From contig JAADID010000175.1 of assembly GCA_013151505.1 (NCBI GenBank), forward strand, positions 1 to 46,081: a stretch of 46,081 nt of DNA, read 5' to 3'. The notes below the pieces were generated by a model, which searched no databases, had not been told where the DNA came from, and saw only the letters and a program-made list of their open reading frames with translations. Below, one piece after another: positions 17,902 to 32,960 of this stretch (positions are counted from its first letter, which is position 1; every line of letters begins with the position of its first letter). The stretch is from Chlorobiota bacterium. GTDB taxonomy: Bacteria > Bacteroidota > Bacteroidia > Bacteroidales > F082. Position numbers and translations under genes: made by a program.

Positions 17902-17926
17902 AATTATCGCTGTTGACAGGTAAAAG

Positions 17927-19180
17927 CTATTTCAGAAAAATCATACGTCGTACTTTTCGGGAATCTTTCAGTTTAAGCTCATAAAAGTATATCCCGTTTC
18001 CGACCGGCTGCCCGTCATCACTGTTTCCATCCCAAAACAGGGCGCGTCCGTTGTCAGTATAATTTCCTTTTTTCAATAAGCCCGGATTGAACGTACGGAC
18101 AATCGTTCCTTTTAAGTTGTATATTTTGATTGTTACCTCTTCATCAACTGCCAAAATAAACGGAATCCAGGTGCCTTCCCTGAAAGGGTTCGGATAATTT
18201 TGCAATAGGTCACTGCTGACCGGCAGATTTTCATTCGGGTCATCCAGTCCGCCGGCTTTGGCGCTGAAAACATCTATCGAACCGTTATTCATTGAAGTTA
18301 TCCAGATTCGGTTACGTGAATCTATGGCAATATCCATCGGGGCGCTCAACTGTCCCGGCTCTGTTCCGAATTCACCGAACTTTGTAATAAAGCTGCCGTT
18401 TTCATCAAATATATTCACCGTTCCCAGCAGGTTATCAAGCACATAAACCCTGCCCCGGTTGTCAACAGCCAGCCCCTGGATTCTTGTGAGCTGTCCGTCT
18501 TCAAAACCGAATTCTCCGAAAGTATTCAGTAAATTGCCTTTTGTATCAAAGACGAGAACCTTTGCCGTAATCCCGTTTTCAGTTGCATCAAGCCCTGAAA
18601 CCGTGCCGCCGTGCTCGGCAACAAGTATCCTGGCGTTTTTTCTGTCGTAAGCTATGCCGGTTGGATAAGCCATAACATCGCTGCCAAATGTTCTGATAAC
18701 ATTTCCCGACAAATCCATGACGATAACCTGCTTTTGTTTGCTATCTACAACATAGAGTTTATTGTCGCCGTCAAACACGGCATCGGACGGATAAGTACAG
18801 TTTGTGTAAATTTCACTATCGCCTCCGTTGAAGTCAAACTTTTTGATGGCCCCAACCTTATTATCACTTACCACAAGCTGTTTATCATCATTTACGGCGA
18901 GGGCAAGCGGAAAGCCGCCGGAGTTCACTGTGCCGAGAAACTGTCCGGAAGTATCAAATTTAACAATCTCTTTCCTGAAAGCATCGGTTACATAAACAAC
19001 ACCGTCATCATCCAGTGCTATGCGTACCGGCGATTTCAGGCCTTCTGATATTCTGAACAAGAATCCGTTATTTCCGGCTGTTTGCTGGGCAAACAAATCG
19101 GGAGTGGATACCCATATTATCAGGAGCCAGCAAACAGCGGGAAAGAAATAACTGATGGAAAACGTAAATATCTTTTTCAT
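17927..19180 (-). CDS. NHL-repeat beta-propeller protein with T9SS-type C-terminal sorting domain
   Basis: NHL-like blades ('PTGIAYD..ILVAE', 'IQGLAVDNRGRVYVLDNLLGTVNIFDENG', 'PMDIAIDSRNRIWITS'). The C-terminal 91 aa ('QNYPNPF...IKIYNLKG...WDGNSDDGQPVGNGIYFYEL...MIFLK') match the Por_Secre_tail/FlgD-Ig pattern. The ORF track starts at a TTG (19189); the ATG at 19180 ('MKKIFTF') is the more likely start. Confidence 0.85.
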   Translation of the reverse strand: MKKIFTFSISYFFPAVCWLLIIWVSTPDLFAQQTAGNNGFLFRISEGLKSPVRIALDDDGVVYVTDAFRKEIVKFDTSGQFLGTVNSGGFPLALAVNDDKQLVVSDNKVGAIKKFDFNGGDSEIYTNCTYPSDAVFDGDNKLYVVDSKQKQVIVMDLSGNVIRTFGSDVMAYPTGIAYDRKNARILVAEHGGTVSGLDATENGITAKVLVFDTKGNLLNTFGEFGFEDGQLTRIQGLAVDNRGRVYVLDNLLGTVNIFDENGSFITKFGEFGTEPGQLSAPMDIAIDSRNRIWITSMNNGSIDVFSAKAGGLDDPNENLPVSSDLLQNYPNPFREGTWIPFILAVDEEVTIKIYNLKGTIVRTFNPGLLKKGNYTDNGRALFWDGNSDDGQPVGNGIYFYELKLKDSRKVRRMIFLK

Positions 19181-19217
19181 AGGCCTCAATTTTTGTGATC
19201 GAAATATGACCAGACGA

Positions 19218-19877
19218 TTATTTATTATGGCACGTCAGACATAAAGCGCTTCCTGCATTTGATATTCGGAGTGAGAGGGAAATAGTCTGTCCCGTAGCCA
19301 CATTGTGACATCCGGAACACCCCTGCGTATTTCTGCTGATGTGCGGATCGTGGCACGAAGTGCACTGCAAATACCCTGACTGGAGGAGATCCTCGGCAAT
19401 AGTACCGCCCAACCCTGAGGGAGTAGTAGCCGGGTCATATAACCCACCATCCGTAGCAGCCAGCGCCGAACTGTACTCAAATGAAATCGGATGATCATCA
19501 CGCAGGTCTGGTGTGATGTTTCCCCAGGTAACATACCAGGTGCCACCTGTGAAACCGCCGTGATTTTCAATGGCAACAGTTCCATCGTGACAGGAAAGGC
19601 ACAACTTTGAAAAGCCATTGGGCTGTCCGGGCGTGGCATCAAGTGTGTTGCTTGTGTAAACCTGAAAAGTTGCCGATGTAACCTCGTGATTCCATAAAGG
19701 CGAATCGTTAACTTCCATGTTTGCGTTGTGAGGCGTGTGGCATGGCCGGCAGGCCTCACCGCCACTCCACGAAGCGCCCGTAAAATCGTGGTGACTATTC
19801 AATAAACCCTGGCCGAAAGAAATGAAATATAAAAAGATCAGTAGTGAAGTAAAAATAGATCTCATAGTGGTTTTCAT
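19218..19877 (-). CDS. small pentahaem c-type cytochrome (paralog family B)
   Basis: 219 aa with a signal peptide. It has 5 CXXCH motifs (CRPCH, CLSCH, CTSCH, CSGCH, CLTCH). It is collinear with the 20113..20763 and 26260..26880 products. Confidence 0.9.
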   Translation of the reverse strand: MKTTMRSIFTSLLIFLYFISFGQGLLNSHHDFTGASWSGGEACRPCHTPHNANMEVNDSPLWNHEVTSATFQVYTSNTLDATPGQPNGFSKLCLSCHDGTVAIENHGGFTGGTWYVTWGNITPDLRDDHPISFEYSSALAATDGGLYDPATTPSGLGGTIAEDLLQSGYLQCTSCHDPHISRNTQGCSGCHNVATGQTISLSLRISNAGSALCLTCHNK

Positions 19878-19952
19878 TTGACTCTAATTTATTTGGTTTG
19901 AAATAAAAAATCTGCTTCAAAAACAAGTGGTTTTTTACGTAAAATCAGTGGA

Positions 19953-19967
19953 GCAAAAATCACGCCA
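19953..19967 (-). promoter_or_regulatory. candidate sigma-54 promoter TGGCGT-N5-TTGC
   Basis: The minus strand reads TGGCGTGATTTTTGC with exact GG-N10-GC spacing. It lies 76 nt upstream of the ATG at 19877. Confidence 0.5.
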
Positions 19968-20112
19968 AAATCACTATGTTTAAATAAAACAGATAGTAGT
20001 TTACCTATTGACAATCTTCTGTTTCGTGGTACAGAGATGTTTTTTCAATAAGTATTCAGGGATTATCTTTTTGCGTATTTGACGGTTTCCCCGTCCGACT
20101 GTATGAATCAGC

Positions 20113-20763
20113 CTATATGTTGTGACAGGTTAGACACAGTGCGCTGCCTTCATTGGACTTTCTTAGAAAGTAAGAAACAGTAGCGCCACGTCCATTCGTT
20201 TCATAATGTCTTTCGGGATTTCCCGAACCCGCAATATTGTGTACATCATGGCATGATGTACATTCCAATCTGCCGTTATCCAGCAAATCTTCTTCAATCG
20301 TACCACCCAAACCGGACATCGTAACGCTTGGATCGCGCAACTTTTTATCTTTCATTGCCAGGCTCGCATCATAGACAAAAGAGACCGGGTGACTATCTCT
20401 TATATAAATCCGGGGAGAATTATTTCCTTCGGGCGCCATAACAATGTGGTTGGAAGGAGCCACTGTTTCATCATGACACGAAAGACATTGCTTTGTTTTG
20501 CCGGAAGGAAGATTCGGATAACTTTTGACTGTACTTCTGGAATATAGCTGAAAAGTCGTAGCAGTATCATGTTGGTTCCAGTTAAGTGAAGAAGGTGGAC
20601 TCATATTGTCAGACTGGGTTATATGGCACGGTCTGCACGGATTATTACTGCTCCAGGAATTCCCTTTGAAAGAATGGTGTCCGAGTGGAAATTCCTGACC
20701 CATAATAGTTGATATAGGGTTAATTAACAACATAACCGCTATATACGCCAAGAATTTAGACAT
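20113..20763 (-). CDS. small tetrahaem c-type cytochrome (paralog family C)
   Basis: 216 aa with a signal peptide. It has 4 CXXCH motifs (CRPCH, CLSCH, CTSCH, CLTCH). It is the most diverged of the three paralogs. Confidence 0.9.
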   Translation of the reverse strand: MSKFLAYIAVMLLINPISTIMGQEFPLGHHSFKGNSWSSNNPCRPCHITQSDNMSPPSSLNWNQHDTATTFQLYSRSTVKSYPNLPSGKTKQCLSCHDETVAPSNHIVMAPEGNNSPRIYIRDSHPVSFVYDASLAMKDKKLRDPSVTMSGLGGTIEEDLLDNGRLECTSCHDVHNIAGSGNPERHYETNGRGATVSYFLRKSNEGSALCLTCHNI

Positions 20764-21218: not shown

Positions 21219-22523
21219 TTAATTTCTTTTATACTCTCTTCTGGCATGGCACCCGGTCAGGCAGGAACCTCCGTTTTGAGTGACCTGATATTTTATCGGC
21301 ATTTCCCAGTTTCCAAAGGCTACACTACCTGCTATAAGATGTTCATATTGCGATCCGTGCATTTTATGGCAATCCTTGCAACTTCGCCCTTTATTTCCAT
21401 GAATATGGGCATAATGCAGGTTTTGATCCCCGTTTCTGAAACCGGTAGCGGATTTTGTTGTCTTTTTTTCGATTAAATCCGTGTCGTGACAAGTAAAACA
21501 CAATGCAAAGGTGTCGGGTTGTGCAGGGGCATAAAATCCGACAGGAAAAGCGTCCTGTAACAACGAAGGGAAAACGGAGGCATGTGGAAAATGACATCCT
21601 GAACAACCGACAAGCTCAATAGCGCCATGAATGACTTTGCTTTTGCTCAATATCTGTTTCATGTTGCTTATCTTTTTCGTCTCTGTTTTAATTGTCCGGT
21701 TATGGCAACTCAAACATAACTCCTGATTTTCTTTCAGAAGAAAATACTCCTGCGGCGAGGCATGAGGTGAATGGCAATTCACACAGGTTTCTTTAATTTT
21801 AACTGCACCATGGACAACGGGTTTACTGTCAACAGATTCTTTCACATCATCATGGCAGTCAAAGCAAAGGGCGGAAATCGTCTGATCAAGCAAATACTTA
21901 TCTCTTGAGCCATGTACCTGATGACAATTCCTGCAATCGTCTTCAAACGGCGGGTGCAGGTTTTTTGTCTTCATAAGTTTACCGACATCCTCGTGACATG
22001 AAAAACACAGATCGGGCATGGCGGATTTGAGCAAAGACCGGTATTTTGACTGATGCGGGTTATGGCAGGACTGACAATTTCCTTCACTTACAGGCTGGTG
22101 TCCGTTATCATGTTTCGCTATTTCCTCGTCGTGACATTCAAAACACAGAGAGGCAACCGGGTTAGCCAGTAGCAAATGTGGGTTCGCGCTACTGTGGGGG
22201 GAGTGGCACATCAGGCATTCACCGCCCTCAACCGGTGCATGGATATACTTTTTGGTGTTCTCATCATGACACATATAGCATAAAGCCGGCAATTCATCGG
22301 CCATTTTAAAAGCTTTTCCTTCCTCGCCCGGATGGGGCTTGCCGGTTGGTTCGTGGCAGTAATCACACGATTCTTCGGCAGGCGGGTGGACATTCTTGCC
22401 AGCCATCAGGTCTCCATGGCAGTCAAGGCAGGTTTTTTCCGGCTCGTCGTTTTGTCCCATGCCTTCGATGCCAAAAACAAGCAGTAAAGAAAAGATAAAG
22501 ATCATCCAAAAGTATTTCCTCAT
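21219..22523 (-). CDS. 14-haem (+1 CX3CH) c-type cytochrome built of seven tandem di-haem modules
   Basis: 434 aa with a signal peptide. 14 CXXCH motifs alternate as xCxxCHxPH and LCxxCH(D/E). A C-terminal CLTGCH is present. The start is 1 nt after the barrel gene stop. Confidence 0.9.
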   Translation of the reverse strand: MRKYFWMIFIFSLLLVFGIEGMGQNDEPEKTCLDCHGDLMAGKNVHPPAEESCDYCHEPTGKPHPGEEGKAFKMADELPALCYMCHDENTKKYIHAPVEGGECLMCHSPHSSANPHLLLANPVASLCFECHDEEIAKHDNGHQPVSEGNCQSCHNPHQSKYRSLLKSAMPDLCFSCHEDVGKLMKTKNLHPPFEDDCRNCHQVHGSRDKYLLDQTISALCFDCHDDVKESVDSKPVVHGAVKIKETCVNCHSPHASPQEYFLLKENQELCLSCHNRTIKTETKKISNMKQILSKSKVIHGAIELVGCSGCHFPHASVFPSLLQDAFPVGFYAPAQPDTFALCFTCHDTDLIEKKTTKSATGFRNGDQNLHYAHIHGNKGRSCKDCHKMHGSQYEHLIAGSVAFGNWEMPIKYQVTQNGGSCLTGCHARREYKRN

Positions 22524-22524
22524 T

Positions 22525-24501
22525 TTACCGCGATTTAAATTTCCTGATAACAGTTACATAGGCTCCATTGAAATTAAGGATTTCCCTGTTTAAATAGTTT
22601 CGCCGATAAACTTCAAGACCGAGCGTAATATACAATTTTCTGACAACCATGTTTAATTCCGTTTTGGCAATAAGATAGTTCAGTCCGATCTCGTAACCGT
22701 TTTGTTCCCTGTAACTTAATTCCAGGTTGAGCTTAATATTTCTGGTGAAACTGTATGCTATTCTCGCTGACACATCTCCATAGGTTTCATCTCTCCGGTC
22801 GGCAATTGTTATATAATATCTGAGATTACCTACGAGCGAAATCAATAGTTTCTGTTTAAAGCGCCAAAGCATGTTCCCGTTCAACCTGATTAACTGATAG
22901 GGAATGATCGTACTCTCGTAATCATCATATTCGATGCCAAAACGTGCAAACCCGACTTTGAACTTTATACCGTAAAGGTTTTGGTAAAAGTAATTTAACA
23001 CCAGTAAATCGGATGATTCCACAAAACTATAGTCTTGTTTAGCCCATCTGTAGTACACCTCAATAAACTGATCAAAAAACGTTAAACTGGCCGTAGCTGA
23101 CTGGCTTATCATATTAAACTTATAAGAACCGGGGAGCATGGCCGTATAATCCACCAGAACCGTTGCATTGTCCGGTATTTTTCCTCCGGGTATCCGTTTG
23201 ATCTCGATGTAATTATTCTGTTCAAACAACAGATAATCCAGGTCCAGATCGTAGATAACAGTACCTGTTACATCTTTTACAACGACAGACCCGATATCTG
23301 CATACGGTTGGTCGAGAAGAGTGATTTGATCATCGGACAGCACATGTTCTTCGTTAGTTACAAAAAACGGCACAGGTTCGCTTACCCTGTCAAAATAGCG
23401 ATCCAGGAAAGAATAAGAAAGATTTAAATTTCCTTTAGGTATTTTCTTGGTGTACCTGATCTCGAATGCAGTCCGCAGATCATCTTCGCTGTATATTGTG
23501 TGCTTGTTGCTGGTGTATTCCGCATAAATATTGGTTTTCAGGCTTTTGAACAGTTGATGGTTCAAATCTACCCTTCCCCTGTGCTGATTAAGCTGGTATA
23601 TCGGATTGGTGTATTGATAAAAATTATATGAACTTACCAACCTGAAATTTTTGGGTAACCTGAAGGTCATGCTACTCATCACCTGGAACCTGTTGAAATT
23701 GTCATACCCAGTTTGGTAGAAATTCGATATGAAAGTCAGCAGGTTATAGCGTCTCATCCTGTCAAACGGGATGCTGCTGTTCAGTTCAATATTGTGTATT
23801 TTATTCTCTCTTGGCTCGGGCAGGTAATATTCTGCATGAATGTAATCATCAAAACTGTAACTAAGCCTGTTGTCATCCTGAGTAAAAAAGGTTTTCGAAA
23901 CTTTAGCTTTGATGCTGCGTTGCCAGTACTTATAAACCTGATTTGTTTCTACTTCTTCCTGATCCCATTTCCCTTCCTCATACGTCACGGAAGCAGGAAG
24001 CACCCTGTTTTTGTAATAAATACCTCCTCCAAAAAATCTCCGGCTCATACGGGAATTGGTAAAGTTCTCCCGGTTTACGTAGCTTTGGCCCATATTGACA
24101 AAAGCATTCACAGTCAGCTTTTTTTCACGAAAGAATGTCGTTCTGAGGTTCAGCCTGCTCAGTGTTCTTGCATCGGAACGGTCGGGGATGCTTGAGTATT
24201 GGTCATTAAGTTTTTCAGGGTTAAATTCACCTTCAAAATCAATTTCCATCAGATTGGGGTTAACGATAAAACTTTTCGATTTCAAAAGAAATCTGCCCGA
24301 AAACAGTGTCCCGTTGATTATTTCCTCGAAGCCGGAGCCTAAAATGCGCTGCTGGTACCGGTAACGTCCTTTTACCCCCACTTCACCCGACAACAACTCC
24401 TGATTCCAGAAATGGTATATCCCTGCGCCGTTTTGCCCGAAACATTCAACGGAAACAAGCAACAACAAACCTACTAACCTTCTGAATCTCAAATCTCTCA
24501 T
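22525..24501 (-). CDS. putative outer-membrane beta-barrel (porin-like) protein
   Basis: 658 aa with a signal peptide ('LLLLVSVECFGQ'). The sequence is Tyr/Phe/Asn/Arg-rich with alternating hydrophobicity throughout, no Cys-rich or cofactor motif, and an aromatic-rich C-terminus. It is tightly packed between two cytochrome genes. Confidence 0.6.
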   Translation of the reverse strand: MRDLRFRRLVGLLLLVSVECFGQNGAGIYHFWNQELLSGEVGVKGRYRYQQRILGSGFEEIINGTLFSGRFLLKSKSFIVNPNLMEIDFEGEFNPEKLNDQYSSIPDRSDARTLSRLNLRTTFFREKKLTVNAFVNMGQSYVNRENFTNSRMSRRFFGGGIYYKNRVLPASVTYEEGKWDQEEVETNQVYKYWQRSIKAKVSKTFFTQDDNRLSYSFDDYIHAEYYLPEPRENKIHNIELNSSIPFDRMRRYNLLTFISNFYQTGYDNFNRFQVMSSMTFRLPKNFRLVSSYNFYQYTNPIYQLNQHRGRVDLNHQLFKSLKTNIYAEYTSNKHTIYSEDDLRTAFEIRYTKKIPKGNLNLSYSFLDRYFDRVSEPVPFFVTNEEHVLSDDQITLLDQPYADIGSVVVKDVTGTVIYDLDLDYLLFEQNNYIEIKRIPGGKIPDNATVLVDYTAMLPGSYKFNMISQSATASLTFFDQFIEVYYRWAKQDYSFVESSDLLVLNYFYQNLYGIKFKVGFARFGIEYDDYESTIIPYQLIRLNGNMLWRFKQKLLISLVGNLRYYITIADRRDETYGDVSARIAYSFTRNIKLNLELSYREQNGYEIGLNYLIAKTELNMVVRKLYITLGLEVYRRNYLNREILNFNGAYVTVIRKFKSR

Positions 24502-24508
24502 TATCCTT

Positions 24509-25078
24509 TCAGTTCAAAATAAACCTGTCCTCACCGCCATGCGGGTTATGACATTCCGTACAATCGGCATCTTCGATATCGGAATGTGCCTCATTTTTAA
24601 ATACATCTTTGGAAAGGTGGCAATTCAGGCACAAATTCTGCCCTGTCCTGATAAGTAAAAATTTGTTTTTACTCATGTGCGGATTATGGCATTGCGTACA
24701 AAAGCCTGCATCAACAGGCCCGTGTAACACTTGATACTGGTCCCCGAAACTTTCGTGGCATTGATAGCAAAGCCCCGGTAAGGGCTCAAGCAATTTTCCC
24801 ATTTGTCCCTGGTTGTGGCAGTTGGCACATTCTTTTTCCTGATAAGGTGGATGAAATATATATTCGGACTTTACCACACGGATAGTCTTAGTTTCCTTAC
24901 TGCCAGCCATTCTGATGGAATCAGCCCGTGCAATACTGTCTGCTTTATATGGATTCGGTACCCCGTCAAAAAAAAAGGAAAGCGTTTTATAATGTGTCTT
25001 TGGTGAGCATGAAATCATCAATGCGAAAGCAAAAGCAAGCAAGATAACTTTTATGTGTAGATCCCTGCGCATCGGCAT
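24509..25078 (-). CDS. pentahaem c-type cytochrome lipoprotein
   Basis: 189 aa with a lipobox-like 'LMISCS' and an 'FFFDGVPNP' motif. It has 5 CXXCH motifs of the same di-haem module type as the 14-haem protein. Confidence 0.9.
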   Translation of the reverse strand: MPMRRDLHIKVILLAFAFALMISCSPKTHYKTLSFFFDGVPNPYKADSIARADSIRMAGSKETKTIRVVKSEYIFHPPYQEKECANCHNQGQMGKLLEPLPGLCYQCHESFGDQYQVLHGPVDAGFCTQCHNPHMSKNKFLLIRTGQNLCLNCHLSKDVFKNEAHSDIEDADCTECHNPHGGEDRFILN

Positions 25079-25087
25079 CCCCGCTTA

Positions 25088-26158
25088 TCATTTGGGCTCT
25101 ACATAACCATATACATTCACTTTATCAGGACCATACTGGTTGGTAACGAATATCAGGTATTTGAGTCGGAAACTATCGTCAACATAGTTTTCAAAGTATT
25201 TTAAATTGTCATAGTCAATAACCACCTTTGCTGGCAACCACATACCACCCGGACCTTTGTAGGGACCTCCGAAAAACATCAACAGATTCCCATCTTTATC
25301 GAATATCTGAATATTCTCAAATCCTGCATCCACAACGTACAGGTGTCCATCTCTGTCAACAGCGATACCTTTGGGACGAACAAACTGACCGATGCTTTTC
25401 CCGTAACTACCCACAGACCTTACGAACTCGCCGTCATGGGTATAAACTTTTATCCTGAAATCCCCAAAATCAGTAACATATACATATTTATCGGTAACAT
25501 AGATGTTGGATGGTGAAAACAGGAAATCTTTATCCCCCGGCTCTGCATCGGGAATGCGTTTTAACAGTTTGTAATCATCTTTGTTGTACACATCAATACT
25601 ATGGCTTGTGAAATTGGCAACCCATATTTTATTATCCTTCACAAAAACGTCGGTGGGTTTTGCATTTTCAGCCTCTCCAAAACTTGCCAGATAACTTCCG
25701 TCACTGTTAAAAACGACAATCTGTCTGCGTTTGGGATCAGCAACATAGAGTTTATTGTCATCATCCAGGAAACAATTAACGGGTTTTTTCAGTTGTCCCA
25801 TGCCTTCCGGGGAAAAGTAATTAAAGTTATGTTTTTCAAGATTAATGACCTCCAGCGCATCCATTTGTGTGTCACAAATATAAATTTTACCGTCGCGTAT
25901 GGCCAGGCCATAAGGTTTTACTATACCCATGTCGGGCAACTCGCCAAACAGGAATCGTGCAAATCCCGATCGTTTTCCCGTTATATCAAGTGAGCTACTG
26001 ATTTTCGTCAGGTACTGTATCCTTGTTGTGTCGGGCGGTGAGGGATAAATGATGATGTTTTCAGATGATATATTTTTATGTATCTTCCGCGAACATGATA
26101 TCGAAAGCATTAAAAACAAACTACTTATCAGGATAACATAAAGCTTTATGCCTTTCAT
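25088..26158 (-). CDS. NHL-repeat beta-propeller lipoprotein
   Basis: 356 aa with lipobox 'LSISCS'. Canonical NHL blades are present ('GQFVRPKGIAVDRDGHLYVVDAGFENIQIFDKDGNLLMFFG'). Confidence 0.85.
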   Translation of the reverse strand: MKGIKLYVILISSLFLMLSISCSRKIHKNISSENIIIYPSPPDTTRIQYLTKISSSLDITGKRSGFARFLFGELPDMGIVKPYGLAIRDGKIYICDTQMDALEVINLEKHNFNYFSPEGMGQLKKPVNCFLDDDNKLYVADPKRRQIVVFNSDGSYLASFGEAENAKPTDVFVKDNKIWVANFTSHSIDVYNKDDYKLLKRIPDAEPGDKDFLFSPSNIYVTDKYVYVTDFGDFRIKVYTHDGEFVRSVGSYGKSIGQFVRPKGIAVDRDGHLYVVDAGFENIQIFDKDGNLLMFFGGPYKGPGGMWLPAKVVIDYDNLKYFENYVDDSFRLKYLIFVTNQYGPDKVNVYGYVEPK

Positions 26159-26206
26159 AAATATAGCCCTTAAATTTTTGGATAAATATACTAAAATGCT
26201 AAGAAT

Positions 26207-26236
26207 AAAAAAGGTGATTTCTCAATCACCTTTTTT
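26207..26236 (-). terminator. rho-independent terminator after the tetrahaem gene 26260..26880
   Basis: The aaggtgat / atcacctt 8-bp perfect stem has a 6-nt loop. It is flanked by A- and T-runs, giving T-rich tails on both strands. Confidence 0.6.
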
Positions 26237-26259
26237 AAACTCATATTTTTCAAATAATG

Positions 26260-26880
26260 TTATTTGTTGTGGCAGGTCAGGCATAATGCGCTGGCTGCAT
26301 TACTTTTGACAAGCAATTTAGCCACACCTGATCCGTTGTGTACATCATGGCAGGAAGCACACTCCAATTTCGTACCGAATAACATATCAGCATCTATGGT
26401 GCCGCCCAGACCGGAGTTTGTTGTCGTCGGGTCATACAATCCACCGTCGGTGCTTGCAAGGGTAGCATCATAAACAAACGATATCGGATGGTCATCACTC
26501 AAATCCGTACCAAGAAGTTCGTCACCGGAAATGAATGTAGTTCCATTGGTTTTTCCGCCGAAATTGTCAAGTGCAACGGTTCCGTCGTGACAACTCAGAC
26601 ACAATTTCGAAATCCCGTCAGGTTGCCCTACTGTAGCATCCAGTGTGGAGGATGAATAAACAGTATACGTCGCGGTAGATAACTGGTGGTTCCACAAAGG
26701 GGCATCAGTTACGCTAATATCAGCGTGGTGCGGTGTATGGCAAACAATGCAGATTTCGCCCGATGGGTTCCAGGTTTCGCTCGAAAAATCATGAGCAGAA
26801 CCGGAAATGTTCTGTCCCAAAGTAACCTGGGCCAAAAAAAGGATAAATAATCCTGCAAAAAGTTTAATCAGTGTTTTCAT
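26260..26880 (-). CDS. small tetrahaem c-type cytochrome (paralog family A)
   Basis: 206 aa with a signal peptide. It has 4 CXXCH motifs (CIVCH, CLSCH, CASCH, CLTCH). It appears monocistronic, lying between a sigma-54 promoter candidate and a terminator. Confidence 0.9.
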   Translation of the reverse strand: MKTLIKLFAGLFILFLAQVTLGQNISGSAHDFSSETWNPSGEICIVCHTPHHADISVTDAPLWNHQLSTATYTVYSSSTLDATVGQPDGISKLCLSCHDGTVALDNFGGKTNGTTFISGDELLGTDLSDDHPISFVYDATLASTDGGLYDPTTTNSGLGGTIDADMLFGTKLECASCHDVHNGSGVAKLLVKSNAASALCLTCHNK

Positions 26881-26950: not shown

Positions 26951-26967
26951 TTGCAAAGTTCGTGCCT
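26951..26967 (-). promoter_or_regulatory. candidate sigma-54 promoter aGGCACG-N4-TTGCAA
   Basis: The minus strand reads AGGCACGAACTTTGCAA with exact GG-N10-GC spacing. It is a near-perfect match to TGGCACG-N4-TTGCW and lies about 73 nt upstream of the ATG at 26880. Confidence 0.6.
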
Positions 26968-27324: not shown

Positions 27325-28704
27325 TTACAAACCGTATTTCTTTTTTTTATACCGCAGCGCATCCCTTGAAATACCTAACATTTTCGAGGCTTTGGTTTGA
27401 TTATACTCACTTTTCTGAAGAGCTTGCAGAATTAATTGTTTTTCCAGGGTTTCCAGTGAAATGCCTTCTTCGGGAATATCAAACTGATATGGGTTTCCGG
27501 TTTCAGGCGCCTGACCGGTAACCAAAGCTGTATTAATCTCACACGGCAGGTTATCCGGTCGGATTTTATCATTATTTTCAAGAATAATGGCGCGTTCCAT
27601 TACATTGCGCAATTCCCTTATATTACCCGGCCATTTATAATGAGACATCAGTTCCAGGGCATTACGCTCAACACCCTTTATTTTTTTGTTAAACTGACTG
27701 TTGAACAGCTCTATGAAATAGTCTATCAACAAGGGGATATCTTCTTTGTGTTCCCGAAGCGGAGGAATATCAATCTGAAATACCTTCAGACGATAATATA
27801 GATCCTCCCTGAAAGTTTTTTGCTCGATGGAGTTTATAAGGTCTTTGTTCGTGGCGGCAATAATGCGAATATCCACGGGAATTTCTGAAGTGCTTCCCAG
27901 ACGCTTTATTGTTCTGTTCTCAAGCACACTCAATAGTTTTACCTGTGTAGCGAGGTTTATTTCACCGATTTCATCAAGGAAAACCGTACCCCCTTCAGCT
28001 ATTTCAAAAAGTCCCTTTTTCATTTTGGCTGCATCCGTAAAGGCTCCTTTTTCATGCCCGAAAAGTTCACTTTCAAGCAGGGTATCGGGAAAAGTAGAAC
28101 AATTAATGGTCACAAAGGGATTTTCTTTTCGACTACTTTCGTTGTGGATTGCGCGCGCAAACAAATCTTTCCCTGTTCCGCTTTCGCCCAAAAGCAAAAT
28201 GGTGGTCGTTTCGGAACGGGCAATTTTTTTGGAAATCTGGACAATTTGTTTGAAGACCGGTGACTCGCCGATAATATTGTCGAAGGTAATTTTCTCCCGT
28301 TGCTGCCGCCTCAGCAACTTGATCTCGGTATTGATGTTGATGTTGTTTTTAATGTTTTCGATGAGCAGGTTAACTTCATCAAACGAAAACGGTTTGTTAA
28401 TGTATTCGTTTGCGCCGTTTTTCATCGCCGTCACAGCGGTATCAATTGAGCCATAGGCGGTCATAAAAACAATGATGGCATCCTCGTCTATGGATTTGAT
28501 TTTTGTAATCACTTCAAGTCCCTGAATGCCGGGCAGACGGTTGTCAACAAAAACAATGTCAGGATAATATTTCTCAAACAATTCGATTCCTTCCTCGCCT
28601 GTTTCCGCCAGGTAAACCCTGTAGCCTTTTACATTTAAATGTTTCTCGAACGACCACCGGATGAGTTTTTCATCGTCAATGACCAGGATTTTCAATAACT
28701 TCAT
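27325..28704 (-). CDS. sigma-54-dependent response regulator (NtrC family)
   Basis: REC domain ('ILVIDDE', 'IVFVDNRLPG'), an AAA+ domain with Walker A 'GESGTGKD' and a 'GAFTDA' loop, then a C-terminal Fis-type HTH ('NQTKASKMLGISRDALRYKKKKYGL'). Confidence 0.95.
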   Translation of the reverse strand: MKLLKILVIDDEKLIRWSFEKHLNVKGYRVYLAETGEEGIELFEKYYPDIVFVDNRLPGIQGLEVITKIKSIDEDAIIVFMTAYGSIDTAVTAMKNGANEYINKPFSFDEVNLLIENIKNNININTEIKLLRRQQREKITFDNIIGESPVFKQIVQISKKIARSETTTILLLGESGTGKDLFARAIHNESSRKENPFVTINCSTFPDTLLESELFGHEKGAFTDAAKMKKGLFEIAEGGTVFLDEIGEINLATQVKLLSVLENRTIKRLGSTSEIPVDIRIIAATNKDLINSIEQKTFREDLYYRLKVFQIDIPPLREHKEDIPLLIDYFIELFNSQFNKKIKGVERNALELMSHYKWPGNIRELRNVMERAIILENNDKIRPDNLPCEINTALVTGQAPETGNPYQFDIPEEGISLETLEKQLILQALQKSEYNQTKASKMLGISRDALRYKKKKYGL

Positions 28705-28738
28705 GGTTGTTTCACTAAATATGCCGGTTTTAAAAAAA

Positions 28739-30190
28739 TTATCCTGTTGGTAAAATTACATAGAATCTGGTCCCTTTTGATTCTTCACTTTCAACCCGGA
28801 TTCTGCCTTTGTGTTTTTCCACAATTTCCTTGGAAATAGCGAGGCCCAGTCCTGTTCCTTCTGTGTGTGTAGTATAAAACGGGTTAAATATATTCTCTAA
28901 AACGTCCTTTGGTATCCCCGTGCCTGTGTCCTCAACGATAATCGTCACCTTCTTGTTTTCCGGGTCGTAAGCTGTTTTAAAAGTAATAACTCCTTTTTGC
29001 GGTATGGCCCGAATGGCATTCAGACCCAGGTTGTGCAAAACGTTCTCTATTTTCTCATTATCGAACGGAAATAAGGGTATGTCTTCCTGTAATTCTTGTC
29101 TGAATTCAATTTTTTTGTTCCGGGTCTGGTTTCTGATAAAAAAGATCAGCGTCCTTATTACGTCGTTTATGTTGTTCATTTCCGGGTTGATGCCGCTGGG
29201 GCGTGAAAATCTCAACATGTTTGTAATGGCATTGTTCACCCGCTCTGCCTGCCGACGGATTTCTTCAAGTATTGGTTTGTTTTCATCTTCCGGTACTTGT
29301 CTGACCAGTATTTCGGCAGCATTGGCAATACCGGTCAGGGGATTTCTGATTTCATGTGCCAGTCTTGAGGCCATCTCGCCGATGGTGGCCATTTTCCTCT
29401 TGTCGTCCAGTTCTTTTTGATGATAAATCTGAAGCTGCTGCTGTGTTTTCTGAAAAGTGTCAACCATTTCGTTAAAGCTCTTTCCAAGCTCAGCAAGTTC
29501 CCTGGATTTTGGGATGGCAATTCGTTCGTTCAGGTTTCCTTTATTTATCCGGTTGATTGTATTGTGAAAACTGTTCAGAGACCTTCTGACTAAGCGGTAA
29601 TGCACCAGAAAGGCAGAAGCCAATACAAGAAAAACGATCATAGCCGAATACCCTAAACTAAAATTCCGCATTAAGGCAATATGCTGGTTTGTCCTTTCCA
29701 AAGTTATATCAAACACAAGCATGCCCAGATATTTTTTGGAAGAGTGGTGGCATTGATAACATTCCGGTGAGTTCCGAAAGCGGATATAAGCCCATAACCC
29801 GGGTTCATTACCATCCTTATAGGACTGTATGTAAGTATCTTCCGGTAATTCGGATATTTTTTTAAACCCTAAAATTTCTCTTGAAAGCGAGTCAGGTCCT
29901 GACAGATAGACGAGGCTGTCATTCGAATTGAATAAGTATAAGCGGTAAAAATATTTGTTTTTTTTAAAACTATCCAGCAACGGATGCAATGCCTTGCCGC
30001 CAACCTGCGAAATTGTTTGCAGGAACTGGGCATGCATTATGCTTAAGCTGCTGTAAATGTCCTCTTCTGCATGTTTGTACATCTCTCTCGACATGTAGCT
30101 GTTAAATAAGAAAAGCGCAAAAAACGACATGGTACTGACCACCAGGAAAATGGTAATACTAATGATCAGTCTGAATGAATACCGCTTCAT
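28739..30190 (-). CDS. sensor histidine kinase with CXXCH-containing periplasmic domain, HAMP, HisKA and HATPase_c
   Basis: 483 aa with two TM helices (aa about 8-30 and about 176-197) flanking a loop that carries 'SPECYQCHH' (nt 29747..29761). H-box 'RLAHEIRNPLTGI' and G-box 'DTGTGI...GTGLGLAI'. Confidence 0.9.
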   Translation of the reverse strand: MKRYSFRLIISITIFLVVSTMSFFALFLFNSYMSREMYKHAEEDIYSSLSIMHAQFLQTISQVGGKALHPLLDSFKKNKYFYRLYLFNSNDSLVYLSGPDSLSREILGFKKISELPEDTYIQSYKDGNEPGLWAYIRFRNSPECYQCHHSSKKYLGMLVFDITLERTNQHIALMRNFSLGYSAMIVFLVLASAFLVHYRLVRRSLNSFHNTINRINKGNLNERIAIPKSRELAELGKSFNEMVDTFQKTQQQLQIYHQKELDDKRKMATIGEMASRLAHEIRNPLTGIANAAEILVRQVPEDENKPILEEIRRQAERVNNAITNMLRFSRPSGINPEMNNINDVIRTLIFFIRNQTRNKKIEFRQELQEDIPLFPFDNEKIENVLHNLGLNAIRAIPQKGVITFKTAYDPENKKVTIIVEDTGTGIPKDVLENIFNPFYTTHTEGTGLGLAISKEIVEKHKGRIRVESEESKGTRFYVILPTG

Positions 30191-31891: not shown

Positions 31892-32960
31892 TTAAACGTC
31901 CGTTAATAAGTTGAAAAACCTGAATGCGCGAATTATAACTATCTGCAACATAAATAAAATCGTTGTCATCAATGAATATCCCCGTAGGCAGCCAGAATTT
32001 ACCGTCTTTTCTACCCTGCCCGCCAAAATAATACAGGAAGTTACCGTTCTTGTCAAAAATTTGCACGGCATGAAATAAAGCATCAACAATATAAATGTTT
32101 CCAAACGAATCGGTTGCGATTCCTTTAGGCCGTGAAAAATAACCCGTAGCATCACCTATCTCTCCAAACATGCTTATAAACTCCCCCTCGCTGTTCAGTA
32201 TCTGTACCCTGAAGTTCATTGCATCAACTATGTAAACAAGTCCTGATTTGTCAATCCAGAGGAAAGTGGGGAAATTAAATTCAAGCGGGCCGTCGCCTCT
32301 TTTGCCGATATGCCGGATCACCTTGCCCTGTAAATCCAAAACCGTGATCCTGTGCAGGGCGGTTTCCACTACCCAAACTTCATTTTTTAAAGAGGAAAAA
32401 GCAATCCCTGTCGGTTGGTCTAATTTCACCGCAGGACAAAATTCAAGTAATTTGTCTGCACTTTCATCCTTATTCAATTTAAATACTTTATTAAGCCTTG
32501 ATTCGGTAAAAAGCAGGTCGCCCTGCGGCAAAGCACAAATGCCCACCAGTGAAGTATAGTGTTGATGAAACGACTGGGGGATTTCACCCACCCCATCCTG
32601 TACTTTCAACAAACTACCCAGTCCCTGGTCAAGTACCCAGAATGAATCCGGGTTTTCGGCAAAAACGGAAATAGGCTTGCTTAAAACTATTGCCTCCTTC
32701 TTGCCAAAAAAGAACTCTGCTATCCGGTCAACCAGATTAACCTCTACCTTACTTTTCTCCGTTGGGAACTTGGTTACCAGACGTAAACGATTGATCTCAA
32801 CCCCTTTTTGATCATAAATCCCTTCCGTTTCCTGTGCCCTCACCGGTAGAAGAAAAACAAGGTACAAAAGACAAAAAACAACCGCCTTTAAGGATAGTTT
32901 ACGAAAAGAATAAATACTCAAACCGTTCATTTGCTCCATAAAATGGATTTTAAAACTCAT
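31872..32960 (-). CDS. NHL-repeat beta-propeller protein (secreted)
   Basis: 362 aa with a signal peptide. NHL blades are present ('GYFSRPKGIATDSFGNIYIVDALFHAVQIFDKNGNFLYYFG', 'PTGIFIDDNDFIYVADSYNSRIQVFQL'). Confidence 0.85.
   Translation of the reverse strand: MSFKIHFMEQMNGLSIYSFRKLSLKAVVFCLLYLVFLLPVRAQETEGIYDQKGVEINRLRLVTKFPTEKSKVEVNLVDRIAEFFFGKKEAIVLSKPISVFAENPDSFWVLDQGLGSLLKVQDGVGEIPQSFHQHYTSLVGICALPQGDLLFTESRLNKVFKLNKDESADKLLEFCPAVKLDQPTGIAFSSLKNEVWVVETALHRITVLDLQGKVIRHIGKRGDGPLEFNFPTFLWIDKSGLVYIVDAMNFRVQILNSEGEFISMFGEIGDATGYFSRPKGIATDSFGNIYIVDALFHAVQIFDKNGNFLYYFGGQGRKDGKFWLPTGIFIDDNDFIYVADSYNSRIQVFQLINGRLNDNDKD

What the first reader, a model, noticed from the sequence alone, without database searches (positions are those of the whole stretch)
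21219..26158. Tight four-gene operon: NHL lipoprotein, 5-haem lipoprotein, 658-aa barrel, 14-haem wire (porin-cytochrome-like core)
Intergenic gaps are 9, 7 and 1 nt, which implies co-translation.
- The barrel candidate is MtrB-sized and is flanked by two cytochromes built from the same di-haem module: H-x8-10-CxxCH-x-PH ... LCxxCH-D/E.
- The lipoprotein cytochrome has 2.5 of these modules and the 14-haem protein has 7.
- This is what would be expected if one haem chain were threaded from the periplasm through a barrel to a surface lipoprotein.
- An NHL propeller lipoprotein as the first gene has no counterpart in the MtrCAB or OmaB/OmbB/OmcB paradigms.
Basis: partly seen in the sequence, partly recalled or inferred. 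Interest (0 to 1): 0.85.

Follow-up and report, generated by a model that had tools for sequence, protein, structure and literature searches.

The report
Bacteroidota OmcE-type cytochrome nanowire cluster
The four genes are real and tightly packed, but together with the gene just upstream they form a Bacteroidota version of the recently described gene cluster for OmcE cytochrome "nanowires", which suggests that many uncultured Bacteroidota can pass electrons across their outer membrane.

Summary
Four minus-strand genes lie 9, 7 and 1 nt apart: an NHL propeller lipoprotein, a 5-haem lipoprotein cytochrome, a 658-aa protein and a multihaem cytochrome. The last has 14 CxxCH plus a conserved CxxxCH, so 15 sites.

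AlphaFold models the 658-aa protein confidently (pLDDT 88) as a barrel of about 30 strands with very short loops.

It is a full-length homologue of OmcE, the tetrahaem nanowire subunit of Geobacter (PDB 7TFS, E=5e-25), and keeps all eight haem ligands.

I fetched the Geobacter omcE locus. Its 9-haem cytochrome, NHL lipoprotein and OmcE all have homologues here (E=3e-62, 3e-48/8e-28, 2e-31). Its barrel does not (hhalign probability 7%).

In 38 related loci, all uncultured Bacteroidota, the order OmcE-like, NHL, 5-haem, barrel, multihaem cytochrome is essentially invariant.

A 2025 preprint defines minimal omcE clusters by these same parts in five other phyla. The NHL protein therefore has a known counterpart.

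Verdict: a new variant of a known but functionally untested kind. Most likely it is an outer-membrane conduit or base for an OmcE-like filament.

The parts
26260..26880 (-). cyt206: OmcE-like tetrahaem cytochrome, the putative filament subunit. It has a type I signal peptide (..TLG|Q) and no T9SS C-terminal domain.
   Evidence: Full-length match to the OmcE filament 7TFS_A (E=4.8e-25) and to the D. soudanensis OmcE bundle 9YUQ_N (E=2.8e-23). It is 35% identical to Geobacter OmcE (E=2e-31). All 4 CxxCH and the 4 distal His align. It sits directly upstream of the NHL gene in 32/33 loci.
26205..26237 (-). Hairpin plus T-run (AAAAAAGGTGATT-GAGA-AATCACCTTTTTT) between cyt206 and NHL356, resembling an intrinsic terminator or attenuator.
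   Evidence: Sequence. RNAfold of the 101-nt spacer gives -22.2 kcal/mol. An equivalent GC-rich hairpin plus T-run is present in 12 of 24 related loci, and the other clade has a spacer of about 40 nt without one.
25088..26158 (-). NHL356: NHL-repeat beta-propeller lipoprotein.
   Evidence: Pfam NHL at 54 bits and DUF5128 6-bladed propeller. Lipobox Cys conserved in 34/34 homologues. Homologous over its full length to the Geobacter omcE-cluster NHL lipoprotein (26% identity, E=7.5e-28). Present in 35/35 loci.
24509..25078 (-). cyt189: 5-haem lipoprotein cytochrome with a conserved LSFFFDGVP segment after the lipid Cys.
   Evidence: 5 CxxCH. PF09699 in 3 stretches. Matches MtrA chain 6R2Q_A at E=1.3e-10. 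Matches the Geobacter cluster 8-haem cytochrome at E=3e-14. Lipid Cys in 29/29 homologues, none followed by an acidic export signal. Directly upstream of the barrel in 36/36 loci.
22525..24501 (-). barrel658: outer-membrane beta-barrel of about 30 strands. It carries a strongly conserved insert of about 57 aa (residues 389-445) at a predicted periplasmic turn.
   Evidence: AF2 model has pLDDT 88 and pTM 0.68, with 18 + 12 long strands and loops mostly of 3-9 residues. No Pfam or NCBIfam family. No PDB sequence hit, even with a profile. Foldseek's best TM-score is to MtrB 6R2Q_B (0.45). The family has 2173 representatives at E<=1e-3. The insert holds many invariant residues (D422, Y423, R436, P438, G440, I442).
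21219..22523 (-). cyt434: 15-site multihaem cytochrome (14 CxxCH plus a C-terminal CxxxCH). It is MtrA-like, has a type I signal peptide, and is the candidate haem wire inside the barrel and in the periplasm.
   Evidence: Motifs. PF09699 in 7 stretches. Matches 6R2Q_A (MtrA) at E=1.3e-14. It is 36% identical over 317 aa to the 9-haem cytochrome of the Geobacter omcE cluster (E=3e-62), including the shared C-terminal CxxxCH module. A homologue is directly downstream of the barrel in 33/33 loci, with 8 to 26 haems.
31872..32960 (-). orf362: second NHL beta-propeller protein, overlapping cyt561 by 20 nt.
   Evidence: Pfam NHL at 74 bits. It is the best match in the window to the Geobacter omcE-cluster NHL protein (34% identity, E=3e-48). 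Paired with cyt561 directly downstream of the cluster in 18/28 loci; cyt561 is upstream in 8 more.
30206..31891 (-). cyt561: 11-haem cytochrome. It has an OmcE-like N-terminal tetrahaem domain (residues 10-205) fused to a 7-haem part with an MtrC/MtrF-type domain.
   Evidence: 7TFS_A match at E=1.2e-27 covers the whole OmcE chain. Geobacter OmcE match at 35% identity, E=4e-33. All OmcE haem ligands align. Pfam Mtrc-MtrF_II-IV_dom scores 46.4 bits against a cut-off of 30.
27325..30190 (-). HK483 / RR459: two-component system inserted in the cluster. It consists of a sensor kinase with a CxxCH in its periplasmic part and a sigma-54-dependent NtrC-type response regulator.
   Evidence: Pfam HAMP/HisKA/HATPase_c, and Response_reg/Sigma54_activat/HTH_8. 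One CxxCH in the kinase here and in its full-length homologues in related loci. Same position in L001, L002, L004-L006, L019 and L023.
26952..26967 (-). Sigma-54-like -24/-12 element (AGGCACGAACTTTGCA), 72-87 nt upstream of the cyt206 start.
   Evidence: One mismatch to TGGCAC-N5-TTGCW. Similar elements occur upstream of cyt219 (19952-19967) and orf362 (32988-33003). The total number of matches in the window is no more than chance (26 against 22 expected). A stricter version of the motif (xGGYRY-N5-YTGCH) is found upstream of the cyt206 homologue in only 3 of 32 loci. This is a weak lead.
15577..20763 (-). Second cytochrome module of the same island:
- cyt216 (20113-20763), a degenerate OmcE paralogue.
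- cyt219 (19218-19877), an OmcE-like protein with 5 haems.
- An NHL propeller with a T9SS sorting domain (17927-19189).
- cyt774 (15577-17901), 17 haems with an N-terminal hydrophobic anchor.
   Evidence: OmcE matches cyt219 at E=8e-23 and cyt216 at E=1.6e-9. NCBIfam T9SS type A sorting domain scores 34.1 bits against a cut-off of 23.

Best explanation
The four-gene operon is the outer-membrane module of a Bacteroidota version of the omcE-type cytochrome-nanowire gene cluster.

Shown here:
- The gene directly upstream encodes a complete OmcE homologue with all eight haem ligands.
- The 434-aa cytochrome, the two NHL propellers and, more weakly, the 189-aa cytochrome are homologues of the proteins encoded next to omcE in Geobacter.
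- The 658-aa protein is predicted to be a beta-barrel of about 30 strands with almost no loops to close it.
- The whole arrangement is conserved across dozens of uncultured Bacteroidota.

Inferred:
- The 15-haem MtrA-like cytochrome inserts into the barrel from the periplasm and carries electrons across the outer membrane, as MtrA does in MtrB.
- The 5-haem lipoprotein and the NHL propeller lipoprotein are tethered to the inner leaflet of the outer membrane. There they dock or assemble the complex, possibly on the conserved periplasmic insert of the barrel.
- The OmcE-like subunit has no T9SS tail. It is exported through, or polymerises on, this barrel complex to form an extracellular haem filament that is charged by the conduit.
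- The terminator-like hairpin after the subunit gene would give more subunit than machinery.
- An adjacent haem-containing sensor kinase and sigma-54 activator would switch the cluster on.
- The direction of electron flow, out to minerals or partners or in from them, cannot be told from sequence.
For: 1. OmcE homology. cyt206 matches 7TFS_A at E=4.8e-25 and 9YUQ_N at E=2.8e-23, both full length. The 4 CxxCH and 4 distal His are conserved.

2. Geobacter omcE locus, fetched as L039 and compared by BLASTP:
- 9-haem cytochrome to cyt434: 36% identity, E=3e-62, with a shared C-terminal CxxxCH module.
- 8-haem cytochrome to cyt434 (E=1e-19) and to cyt189 (E=3e-14).
- NHL lipoprotein to orf362 (E=3e-48) and to NHL356 (E=7.5e-28).

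3. [quoted passage not shown] It proposes the barrel as a secretion pore or anchor. The window holds exactly this set.

4. Barrel. The AF2 model has pLDDT 88 and about 30 strands with short loops. The Geobacter cluster barrel models as 32-36 strands at pLDDT 86.7.

5. cyt434 and cyt189 match MtrA (6R2Q_A) at E=1e-14 and 1e-10.

6. Synteny. The gene order is kept in 32-36 of 33-36 informative loci, and in a MAG labelled Chlorobi.

7. A terminator-like hairpin follows the subunit gene here and in 12 of 24 loci.

8. cyt206 ends at its last haem motif (..CLTCHNK), so it has no T9SS sorting domain.
Against: - The barrel family shows no detectable sequence homology to the Geobacter omcE-cluster barrel (hhalign probability 7%; no BLAST hit). 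It shows none to MtrB or any solved structure either. The barrel may have been recruited independently.
- No function of any accessory gene in an omcE cluster has been tested experimentally. The secretion or anchor role is a hypothesis of the preprint.
- OmcE homology does not prove filament formation. Tetrahaem OmcE-like proteins are widespread.
- All carriers are uncultured MAGs, so there is no physiology.
- The physiological importance of OmcE filaments in Geobacter itself is disputed (PMC13194489).
Confidence: 0.6

Rival explanations
1. A plain porin-cytochrome conduit of the Pcc/Ext/Mtr kind. The 15-haem cytochrome threads the barrel and hands electrons to the 5-haem lipoprotein on the cell surface. 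That lipoprotein is the terminal reductase. The OmcE-like proteins are loosely associated or soluble cytochromes and do not polymerise.
For: - The architecture of periplasmic multihaem cytochrome, barrel and lipoprotein cytochrome is the same as in the Geobacter OmaB/OmbB/OmcB and ExtABCD clusters (PMC6148476 and PMC4282303, listed; my knowledge of those systems).
- Both cytochromes match MtrA by sequence.
- The barrel is predicted with confidence.
- The gaps of 9, 7 and 1 nt couple these four genes more tightly than the subunit gene, which is separated by a hairpin.
Against: - The OmcE-like gene is kept next to the operon in 32/33 loci.
- It retains every haem ligand of the filament-forming OmcE, including the His near the mature N-terminus.
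- The lipoprotein cytochrome lacks the Bacteroidota surface-export signal in all 29 homologues (PMC5080379).
- This model leaves the two NHL propellers unexplained.
Confidence: 0.2
2. The barrel is only a secretion pore or usher for folded OmcE-like subunits, and perhaps for cyt561, in a phylum whose usual exporter (T9SS) needs a C-terminal tag that these cytochromes lack. It is not itself an electron conduit. cyt434 and cyt189 are periplasmic carriers or chaperones. The propeller controls assembly, as proposed for OscD in the OmcS system.
For: - The preprint proposes a porin-like export or anchor role for the large barrels next to omcE and omcS.
- The osc operon is proposed to provide secretion (OscEFG) and morphology control (OscD) for OmcS.
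- A barrel of about 30 strands with very short loops would be wide enough for a folded protein of about 20 kDa. This is my inference.
- cyt206 has no T9SS domain, whereas a neighbouring NHL protein does.
Against: - A filament outside the cell still needs an electrical connection through the outer membrane.
- cyt434 is MtrA-like. Its haem count varies by whole di-haem modules, from 8 to 26 across loci, as expected of a spanning wire rather than a chaperone.
- An open pore of about 40 Å would need gating, and no plug domain is evident apart from the 57-aa insert.
Confidence: 0.13
3. The cluster is not for extracellular electron transfer. It is a periplasmic or outer-membrane redox system acting on a soluble or imported substrate. 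The NHL propellers would be the catalytic or binding components, and the barrel a substrate channel.
For: - NHL and related six-bladed propellers include enzymes. Weak hits to SGL/gluconolactonase, arylesterase and Vgb lyase families appear.
- There are no physiological data for any carrier.
Against: - All of those enzyme-family hits are weak and mostly near or below the curated cut-offs. SGL only just clears its cut-off for two of the three NHL proteins; the Vgb_lyase hits are below theirs.
- Five parts are homologous to the omcE cluster.
- Nothing in the island encodes a recognisable catalytic redox enzyme.
Confidence: 0.05

Closest known systems
omcE nanowire gene cluster of Geobacter sulfurreducens and relatives (OmcE = GSU0618; cluster described in bioRxiv 10.1101/2025.10.22.684050; OmcE filament PDB 7TFS; D. 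soudanensis bundle PDB 9YUQ)
   Same: - The parts list is the same: an OmcE-like tetrahaem subunit, two multihaem cytochromes, NHL beta-propeller proteins and a very large beta-barrel, all adjacent.
- Sequence homology is shown for the subunit (E=2e-31), for the larger cytochrome including its C-terminal CxxxCH module (E=3e-62), and for the propellers (E=3e-48 and 7.5e-28).
   Different: - Phylum: Bacteroidota is not among the five phyla listed in the preprint.
- Barrel: the families are not detectably homologous. This one has 658 aa and about 30 strands; the Geobacter one has 752 aa and about 32-36 strands.
- Gene order: here subunit, NHL, 5-haem, barrel, cytochrome. In Geobacter cytochrome, cytochrome, NHL, OmcE, barrel.
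- The smaller cytochrome here is a 5-haem lipoprotein.
- There is no glycosylation gene block.
- Extra here: the OmcE-MtrC fusion cytochrome cyt561, three OmcE paralogues, a T9SS-tagged propeller and an embedded sigma-54 two-component system.
OmcS companion (osc) operon of G. sulfurreducens (Shen et al. 2025, as summarised in PMC13194489)
   Same: A filament-forming cytochrome gene is accompanied by a beta-propeller-like protein (OscD, morphology) and channel-like proteins (OscEFG, secretion). This is the same logic of subunit plus propeller plus outer-membrane channel.
   Different: - The subunit here is OmcE-type with 4 haems, not OmcS-type with 6. Only a marginal hit to OmcS 6EF8 was seen, at E=0.043.
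- No prolyl-isomerase OscH equivalent was seen in the island.
- Homology to the Osc proteins was not tested, because I had no way to obtain the sequences.
MtrCAB of Shewanella (PDB 6R2Q)
   Same: - A multihaem cytochrome of the MtrA/DmsE type lies next to a large barrel. cyt434 and cyt189 match MtrA at E=1e-14 and 1e-10.
- MtrB gives the best TM-score to the barrel model (0.45).
   Different: - The barrel has no sequence similarity to MtrB and no MtrB Pfam hit. It has about 30 strands; MtrB has 26 by my recollection.
- There is no MtrC-type decahaem surface lipoprotein in the operon.
- NCBIfam DmsE-family score for cyt434 is 149 bits, below the cut-off of 192.
- MtrCAB has no propeller and no filament subunit.
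Geobacter porin-cytochrome conduits OmaB/OmbB/OmcB and ExtABCD/ExtEFG (PMC4282303, PMC6148476)
   Same: The three-part architecture is the same: periplasmic multihaem cytochrome, barrel and lipoprotein multihaem cytochrome encoded together. ExtC/D/F are, by my recollection, 5-haem lipoproteins like cyt189.
   Different: - Those clusters, as far as I recall, have no NHL propeller and no OmcE-like gene.
Desulfovibrio ferrophilus IS5 outer-membrane cytochrome clusters DFE_448-451 / DFE_461-465 (PMC5815863)
   Same: Multihaem cytochromes are co-encoded and co-expressed with NHL-repeat beta-propeller proteins. The authors proposed that the propellers stabilise an outer-membrane cytochrome complex.
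   Different: There the propeller was proposed to stand in for a beta-barrel. Here both a propeller and a barrel are present. Homology was not tested.

Membership tests
omcE-type cytochrome nanowire cluster | OmcE-like tetrahaem subunit with four CxxCH and four further haem-ligand His | tested here: met
   cyt206 matches 7TFS_A at E=4.8e-25 over its full length. All 8 ligands align.
omcE-type cytochrome nanowire cluster | Beta-propeller lipoprotein(s) encoded in the cluster | tested here: met
   - NHL356 has an NHL domain and a lipobox, and is homologous to the Geobacter cluster NHL lipoprotein (E=7.5e-28).
- orf362 has an NHL domain and matches at E=3e-48, but its signal peptide shows no clear lipobox.
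omcE-type cytochrome nanowire cluster | Two further multihaem cytochromes adjacent | tested here: met
   cyt434 matches the Geobacter 9-haem cytochrome at E=3e-62, with a shared CxxxCH end module. cyt189 matches the Geobacter 8-haem cytochrome at E=3e-14.
omcE-type cytochrome nanowire cluster | Large outer-membrane beta-barrel adjacent (by presence and size) | tested here: met
   AF2 gives pLDDT 88 and about 30 strands for barrel658. The Geobacter counterpart gives pLDDT 86.7 and about 32-36 strands.
omcE-type cytochrome nanowire cluster | Barrel homologous to the Geobacter omcE-cluster barrel | tested here: not met
   No BLASTP hit. hhalign of 43 against 33 sequences gives probability 7%, E=0.005 over 61 columns. 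Deep homology of barrels cannot be excluded.
omcE-type cytochrome nanowire cluster | Subunit polymerises into an extracellular filament | not testable with these tools
   This needs microscopy or biochemistry. Only ligand conservation is available.
MtrCAB porin-cytochrome complex | MtrB/PioB-family barrel | tested here: not met
   No Pfam or NCBIfam hit. phmmer and a profile search against PDB sequences, including 6R2Q_B, find nothing. The Foldseek TM-score of 0.45 is only generic large-barrel similarity.
MtrCAB porin-cytochrome complex | MtrA/DmsE-family decahaem cytochrome | tested here: inconclusive
   cyt434 matches 6R2Q_A at E=1.3e-14. However, TIGR03508 scores 149 bits against a cut-off of 192, and the protein has 15 haem sites, not 10.
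MtrCAB porin-cytochrome complex | MtrC/OmcA-type surface decahaem lipoprotein | tested here: not met
   cyt189 has 5 haems, and its Mtrc-MtrF_II-IV_dom score of 24.4 is below the cut-off of 30. Only cyt561, outside the operon, passes at 46.4.
Geobacter Pcc/Ext conduits | Periplasmic multihaem cytochrome, barrel and lipoprotein multihaem cytochrome in one cluster | tested here: met
   Gene content, signal peptides and lipobox.
Geobacter Pcc/Ext conduits | Barrel homologous to OmbB/ExtB/ExtE/ExtI | not tested
OmcS companion (osc) system | OmcS-type hexahaem subunit with OscD/OscEFG/OscH homologues | not tested
   No OmcS-like protein was seen; the best hit to 6EF8 is E=0.043.

The most novel reading that the evidence does not exclude
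Uncultured Bacteroidota carry a self-contained machine that exports, anchors and electrically feeds OmcE-type cytochrome filaments.

- It is built on a barrel family of about 30 strands that arose independently of the Geobacter one.
- The cluster's 11-haem fusion protein cyt561 has an OmcE domain plus an MtrC-like domain. It would be the filament's tip or base adaptor. The OmcE structural study said it could not find such a component in known omcE operons.

If true, a phylum usually treated as fermentative would be a widespread player in extracellular electron transfer. The cluster would also offer the first genetic handle on how OmcE filaments start or end.
Probability: 0.3. Interest if true: 0.8.

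Novelty: new variant of a known kind. Interest (0 to 1): 0.6.

Why it matters
- How cytochrome nanowires cross the outer membrane, assemble and are wired to the periplasm is an open question.
- This cluster is a compact, strongly conserved variant in a sixth phylum. Four of the five part types are homologous to the Geobacter ones, but the barrel is not. That points to the parts that are indispensable (subunit, MtrA-like cytochrome, propeller) and the part that can be swapped (barrel).
- It adds a candidate tip or base protein, cyt561. It also shows that the periplasmic wire is lengthened by whole di-haem modules, from 8 to 26 haems.
- The barrel family is large: 2173 representatives at 50% identity. 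All named carriers are uncultured Bacteroidota from sediments, soils and vents. Extracellular electron transfer may therefore be far commoner in this phylum than assumed.
- The held literature has no paper that links OmcE clusters to Bacteroidota.

Tried and rejected
- **Pfam and NCBIfam on the barrel.** Only sub-threshold noise appeared (DUF7840 at 17.5 bits, a phage tail tube model at 17.1 bits). I rejected both.
- **PDB sequence searches with the barrel.** Neither the single sequence nor the 43-sequence profile found anything.
- **Foldseek against the PDB.** All large barrels (TonB-dependent receptors, LptD, MtrB) score E~1e-8 with TM-scores of 0.25-0.45. I did not take this as evidence of family membership. 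No TonB-dependent receptor family was detected in the sequence.
- **Barrel homology to the Geobacter omcE-cluster barrel.** BLASTP, profile against sequence, and profile against profile were all negative.
- **First genome scan.** The attempt with the 43-sequence alignment failed for lack of a conserved stretch. I repeated it with 11 closer sequences.
- **Sigma-70 promoter and terminator scan.** It was uninformative. Counts were near those of shuffles, and the consensus is wrong for Bacteroidota.
- **Sigma-54 motif.** It is well placed upstream of three cytochrome units, but the window-wide count equals chance, and a stricter form of the motif (xGGYRY-N5-YTGCH) is kept in only 3 of 32 loci. I keep it as a weak lead.
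- **Literature searches.** NHL combined with porin-cytochrome was swamped by lymphoma papers. The Osc primary paper is not in the searchable library.
- **Model coordinates.** They are not exposed to scripts. Strand count comes from the DSSP string, and the lumen size is only a geometric estimate.

Full report

Yes. The ORF list and a motif count give four minus-strand genes:

| Name | Coordinates | Length | Features |
|---|---|---|---|
| NHL356 | 25088-26158 | 356 aa | NHL propeller |
| cyt189 | 24509-25078 | 189 aa | 5 CxxCH |
| barrel658 | 22525-24501 | 658 aa | one Cys, no haem motif |
| cyt434 | 21219-22523 | 434 aa | 14 CxxCH |

- The gaps are 9, 7 and 1 nt.
- NHL356 and cyt189 have signal peptides ending in a lipobox (LSIS-C and LMIS-C). 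The Cys is present in all 34 and all 29 homologues I inspected.
- Pfam confirms NHL repeats in the first protein.
- One correction: cyt434 consists of one single CxxCH followed by seven di-haem modules. The last module ends in CLTGCH. The same CxxxCH ends the Geobacter homologue (CVVGCH), so 15 haem sites is the better count.

**2. The barrel**

- The 658-aa protein matches no Pfam or NCBIfam family above noise. It matches no PDB sequence, even as a 43-sequence profile.
- It has more than 140 close homologues, all annotated 'hypothetical'. In a library of 1.84 billion representatives, the profile finds 2173 proteins at E<=1e-3 and 671 at E<=1e-30.
- AlphaFold2 with that alignment gives pLDDT 88 and pTM 0.68. 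The protein is all-beta: 18 long strands, an insert of about 57 residues (389-445), then 12 more strands.
- Loops on both sides are mostly 3-9 residues long. Only the strand 3-4 connection, about 12-17 residues and modelled at low confidence, is longer.
- The insert falls after an even number of strands. With the usual topology it is therefore periplasmic. It is the best-conserved part of the family.
- Homologues end in ...RKF, an aromatic C-terminus of the kind typical of outer-membrane barrels (the rule is from my knowledge).
- Standard barrel geometry (n=30, shear about n+2) gives a C-alpha diameter of about 54 Å and a lumen of roughly 40 Å.
- Foldseek against the PDB gives generic large-barrel matches at E~1e-8. 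The best TM-score is to MtrB (0.45). That shows resemblance, not membership.

**3.

The gene 101 nt upstream (cyt206, 26260-26880, 4 CxxCH) matches two solved filaments over its whole length:
- the OmcE filament subunit of Geobacter sulfurreducens (PDB 7TFS_A, E=4.8e-25);
- the Desulfuromonas soudanensis OmcE bundle (9YUQ_N, E=2.8e-23; identity of the entry confirmed).

All four CxxCH motifs and the four other conserved haem-ligand histidines align.

Both cytochromes of the operon match chain A of 6R2Q at E=1.3e-14 and 1.3e-10. That chain is 333 aa and belongs to the Mtr complex; from my knowledge of the entry it is MtrA. The molecule name printed for it by the tool is clearly wrong.

**4. Direct comparison with the Geobacter omcE locus**

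I rebuilt the OmcE sequence from the alignment, found the Geobacter protein and fetched its locus (L039). The locus reads purHDE, resB, ccsB, a 9-haem cytochrome, an 8-haem cytochrome, an NHL lipoprotein, OmcE, a 752-aa protein with no Pfam family, then glycosyltransferases.

BLASTP against the window proteins:

| Geobacter protein | Window protein | Identity | E-value |
|---|---|---|---|
| 9-haem cytochrome | cyt434 | 36% over 317 aa | 3e-62 |
| 8-haem cytochrome | cyt434 | 29% | 1e-19 |
| 8-haem cytochrome | cyt189 | 28% | 3e-14 |
| NHL lipoprotein | orf362 | 34% | 3e-48 |
| NHL lipoprotein | NHL356 | 26%, full length | 7.5e-28 |
| OmcE | cyt206 | 35% | 2e-31 |
| OmcE | cyt561, residues 2-205 | 35% | 4e-33 |
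| OmcE | cyt219 | 30% | 8e-23 |
| OmcE | cyt216 | 27% | 1.6e-9 |
| 752-aa protein | barrel658 | none | no hit |

- Neither a profile-against-sequence nor a profile-against-profile comparison (43 against 33 sequences) detects homology between the two barrels (probability 0.4% and 7%).
- The 752-aa protein is nevertheless also predicted to be a very large barrel, with pLDDT 86.7 and about 32-36 strands.

**5. Conservation**

A scan of one genome per species found 38 loci. All are uncultured Bacteroidota MAGs, labelled Bacteroidales, Lentimicrobiaceae, Marinilabiliaceae, Rikenellaceae and similar. Counts where the flank is long enough:

| Feature | Loci |
|---|---|
| cyt189 homologue directly upstream of the barrel | 36/36 |
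| NHL gene before that | 35/35 |
| OmcE-like gene before that | 32/33 (downstream in the other) |
| cyt434 homologue directly downstream | 33/33 |
| Second NHL protein plus the 11-haem cyt561, directly downstream | 18/28 |
| cyt561 upstream instead, as in the window | 8/28 |

- In the loci with cyt561 upstream, a sensor kinase and sigma-54 activator usually lie between it and the OmcE-like gene, as they do in the window.
- A MAG labelled Chlorobi has the same order.
- The downstream cytochrome has 8 haems in 16 loci. Others have 10, 14, 18 or 26. The upstream lipoprotein has 5 haems in 27 loci and 8-13 in five.

**6. What is known**

[quoted passage not shown] It found such clusters in Thermodesulfobacteriota, Pseudomonadota, Aquificota, Campylobacterota and Nitrospirota. 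It suggests that the barrel is a secretion pore or anchor.
- For OmcS, an osc operon is proposed to provide folding (OscH), secretion (OscEFG) and morphology control (OscD). OscD is a beta-propeller-like protein by my recollection of Shen et al. 2025.
- NHL propellers also accompany outer-membrane cytochromes in Desulfovibrio ferrophilus.
- The NHL protein therefore has known counterparts, though not in MtrCAB or Pcc.
- No paper in the held library links OmcE clusters with Bacteroidota.

**7. Most likely mechanism**

Shown:
- homology of four part types to the omcE cluster;
- a confident giant barrel;
- invariant synteny.

Inferred:
- cyt434 sits in the barrel as MtrA sits in MtrB, and extends into the periplasm. 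Its length is adjusted by adding or losing di-haem modules.
- cyt189 and NHL356 are tethered to the inner leaflet of the outer membrane. The residues after their lipid Cys are basic or neutral in the window and in nearly all homologues. Isolated acidic residues occur, but none has the acidic K-(D/E)2 export signal that takes Bacteroidota lipoproteins to the surface (PMC5080379).
- The OmcE-like subunit ends at its last haem motif and has no T9SS tail. It would be exported through, or assembled on, this complex.
- A GC-rich hairpin plus T-run follows the subunit gene here and in 12 of 24 loci. This would fit more subunit than machinery being made, as in pilus operons.
- The direction of electron flow is unknown.
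- I put this reading at 0.6. The rivals are a plain conduit without filaments (0.2), a barrel that is only an export pore (0.13) and a function other than extracellular electron transfer (0.05).

**8. Limits**

- No accessory gene of any omcE cluster has been tested experimentally.
- OmcE homology does not prove polymerisation.
- The importance of OmcE filaments is debated even in Geobacter.
- The barrels are not demonstrably homologous.
- I could not model the complex.

**9. Verdict**

A porin-cytochrome core is plausible. The 'unprecedented NHL' and 'surface lipoprotein' points are not, and the key neighbour was missed.
- Novelty: a new variant of a known kind. The cluster is in a sixth phylum, with a different barrel family, a 5-haem lipoprotein, an OmcE-MtrC fusion cytochrome and a link to T9SS.
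- Interest: 0.6.

Noticed in passing
window 30206-31891 (-), with 31872-32960 (-): - cyt561 is an 11-haem fusion. Residues 10-205 form a complete OmcE-like domain (7TFS E=1.2e-27, all ligands kept).
- The rest carries an MtrC/MtrF domain II/IV (Pfam 46 bits against a cut-off of 30).
- It overlaps by 20 nt with a second NHL propeller gene and accompanies the cluster in 26 of 28 loci.
- The OmcE structural preprint asked for an OmcE-like protein with extra haems as a filament tip and found none in known operons. This protein is such a candidate.
   Followed up: partly
window 28739-30190 (-) and 27325-28704 (-): A two-component system is inserted in the cluster.
- The sensor kinase has a CxxCH (CYQCH, about residue 143) in its predicted periplasmic part just before the second transmembrane helix, so it may be a c-type haem redox sensor.
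- The regulator is a sigma-54-dependent NtrC type.
- The pair sits in the same place in L001, L002, L004-L006, L019 and L023. The kinase CxxCH is kept in all of these except the truncated L023 ORF.
   Followed up: partly
window 26952-26967, 19952-19967, 32988-33003 (all -): Sigma-54-like -24/-12 elements lie 28-90 nt upstream of the starts of cyt206, cyt219 and orf362. The window-wide count of such matches is no more than chance. A stricter form of the motif is found in only 3 of 32 related loci.
   Followed up: partly
window 17927-19189 (-), flanked by 19218-19877 and 15577-17901: - A third NHL propeller carries a type IX secretion C-terminal sorting domain, so it is probably displayed on the cell surface.
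- It sits between a 5-haem OmcE paralogue (cyt219) and a 17-haem cytochrome (cyt774).
- The N-terminus of cyt774 looks like an uncleaved membrane anchor.
- This trio recurs in L001 and L004.
   Followed up: no
window 20113-20763 (-): cyt216 is a diverged OmcE paralogue (E=1.6e-9). It has lost one of the conserved distal histidines (TPH replaced by ITQ). It is separated from cyt434 by an unusually long spacer of 455 nt.
   Followed up: no
barrel658 residues 389-445 (window about 23167-23337): The most conserved part of the barrel family is a small beta-rich insert of about 57 residues at a predicted periplasmic turn (consensus VVVKDxTGTIIYQ...DYxLIERNxYxEIQRIPGGQIP). It has no detectable relatives. 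It could be a docking site or a plug.
   Followed up: no
cyt189 residues 24-42 (window about 24953-25009): Directly after the lipidated Cys, the 5-haem lipoproteins share a conserved stretch, C-S-P-x(3-5)-(Y)K-x-L-(S/T)-F-F-F-D-G-V-P. It lies well before the first haem motif and has no known function.
   Followed up: no
L017, L019, L023, L026 (cyt189 position); L019, L001, L004 (cyt434 position): In some loci the lipoprotein cytochrome has grown to 8-13 haems and the downstream cytochrome to 18-26 haems. In the commonest clade the downstream cytochrome has only 8. Both proteins seem to change length by whole di-haem modules.
   Followed up: partly
PDB entry 28pb chain A (hit): An unidentified 278-aa 'Cytochrome c' structure matches cyt189 (E=3e-5) and cyt434 (E=0.005). 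I could not find out what the entry is. It might be a newly solved conduit cytochrome.
   Followed up: no
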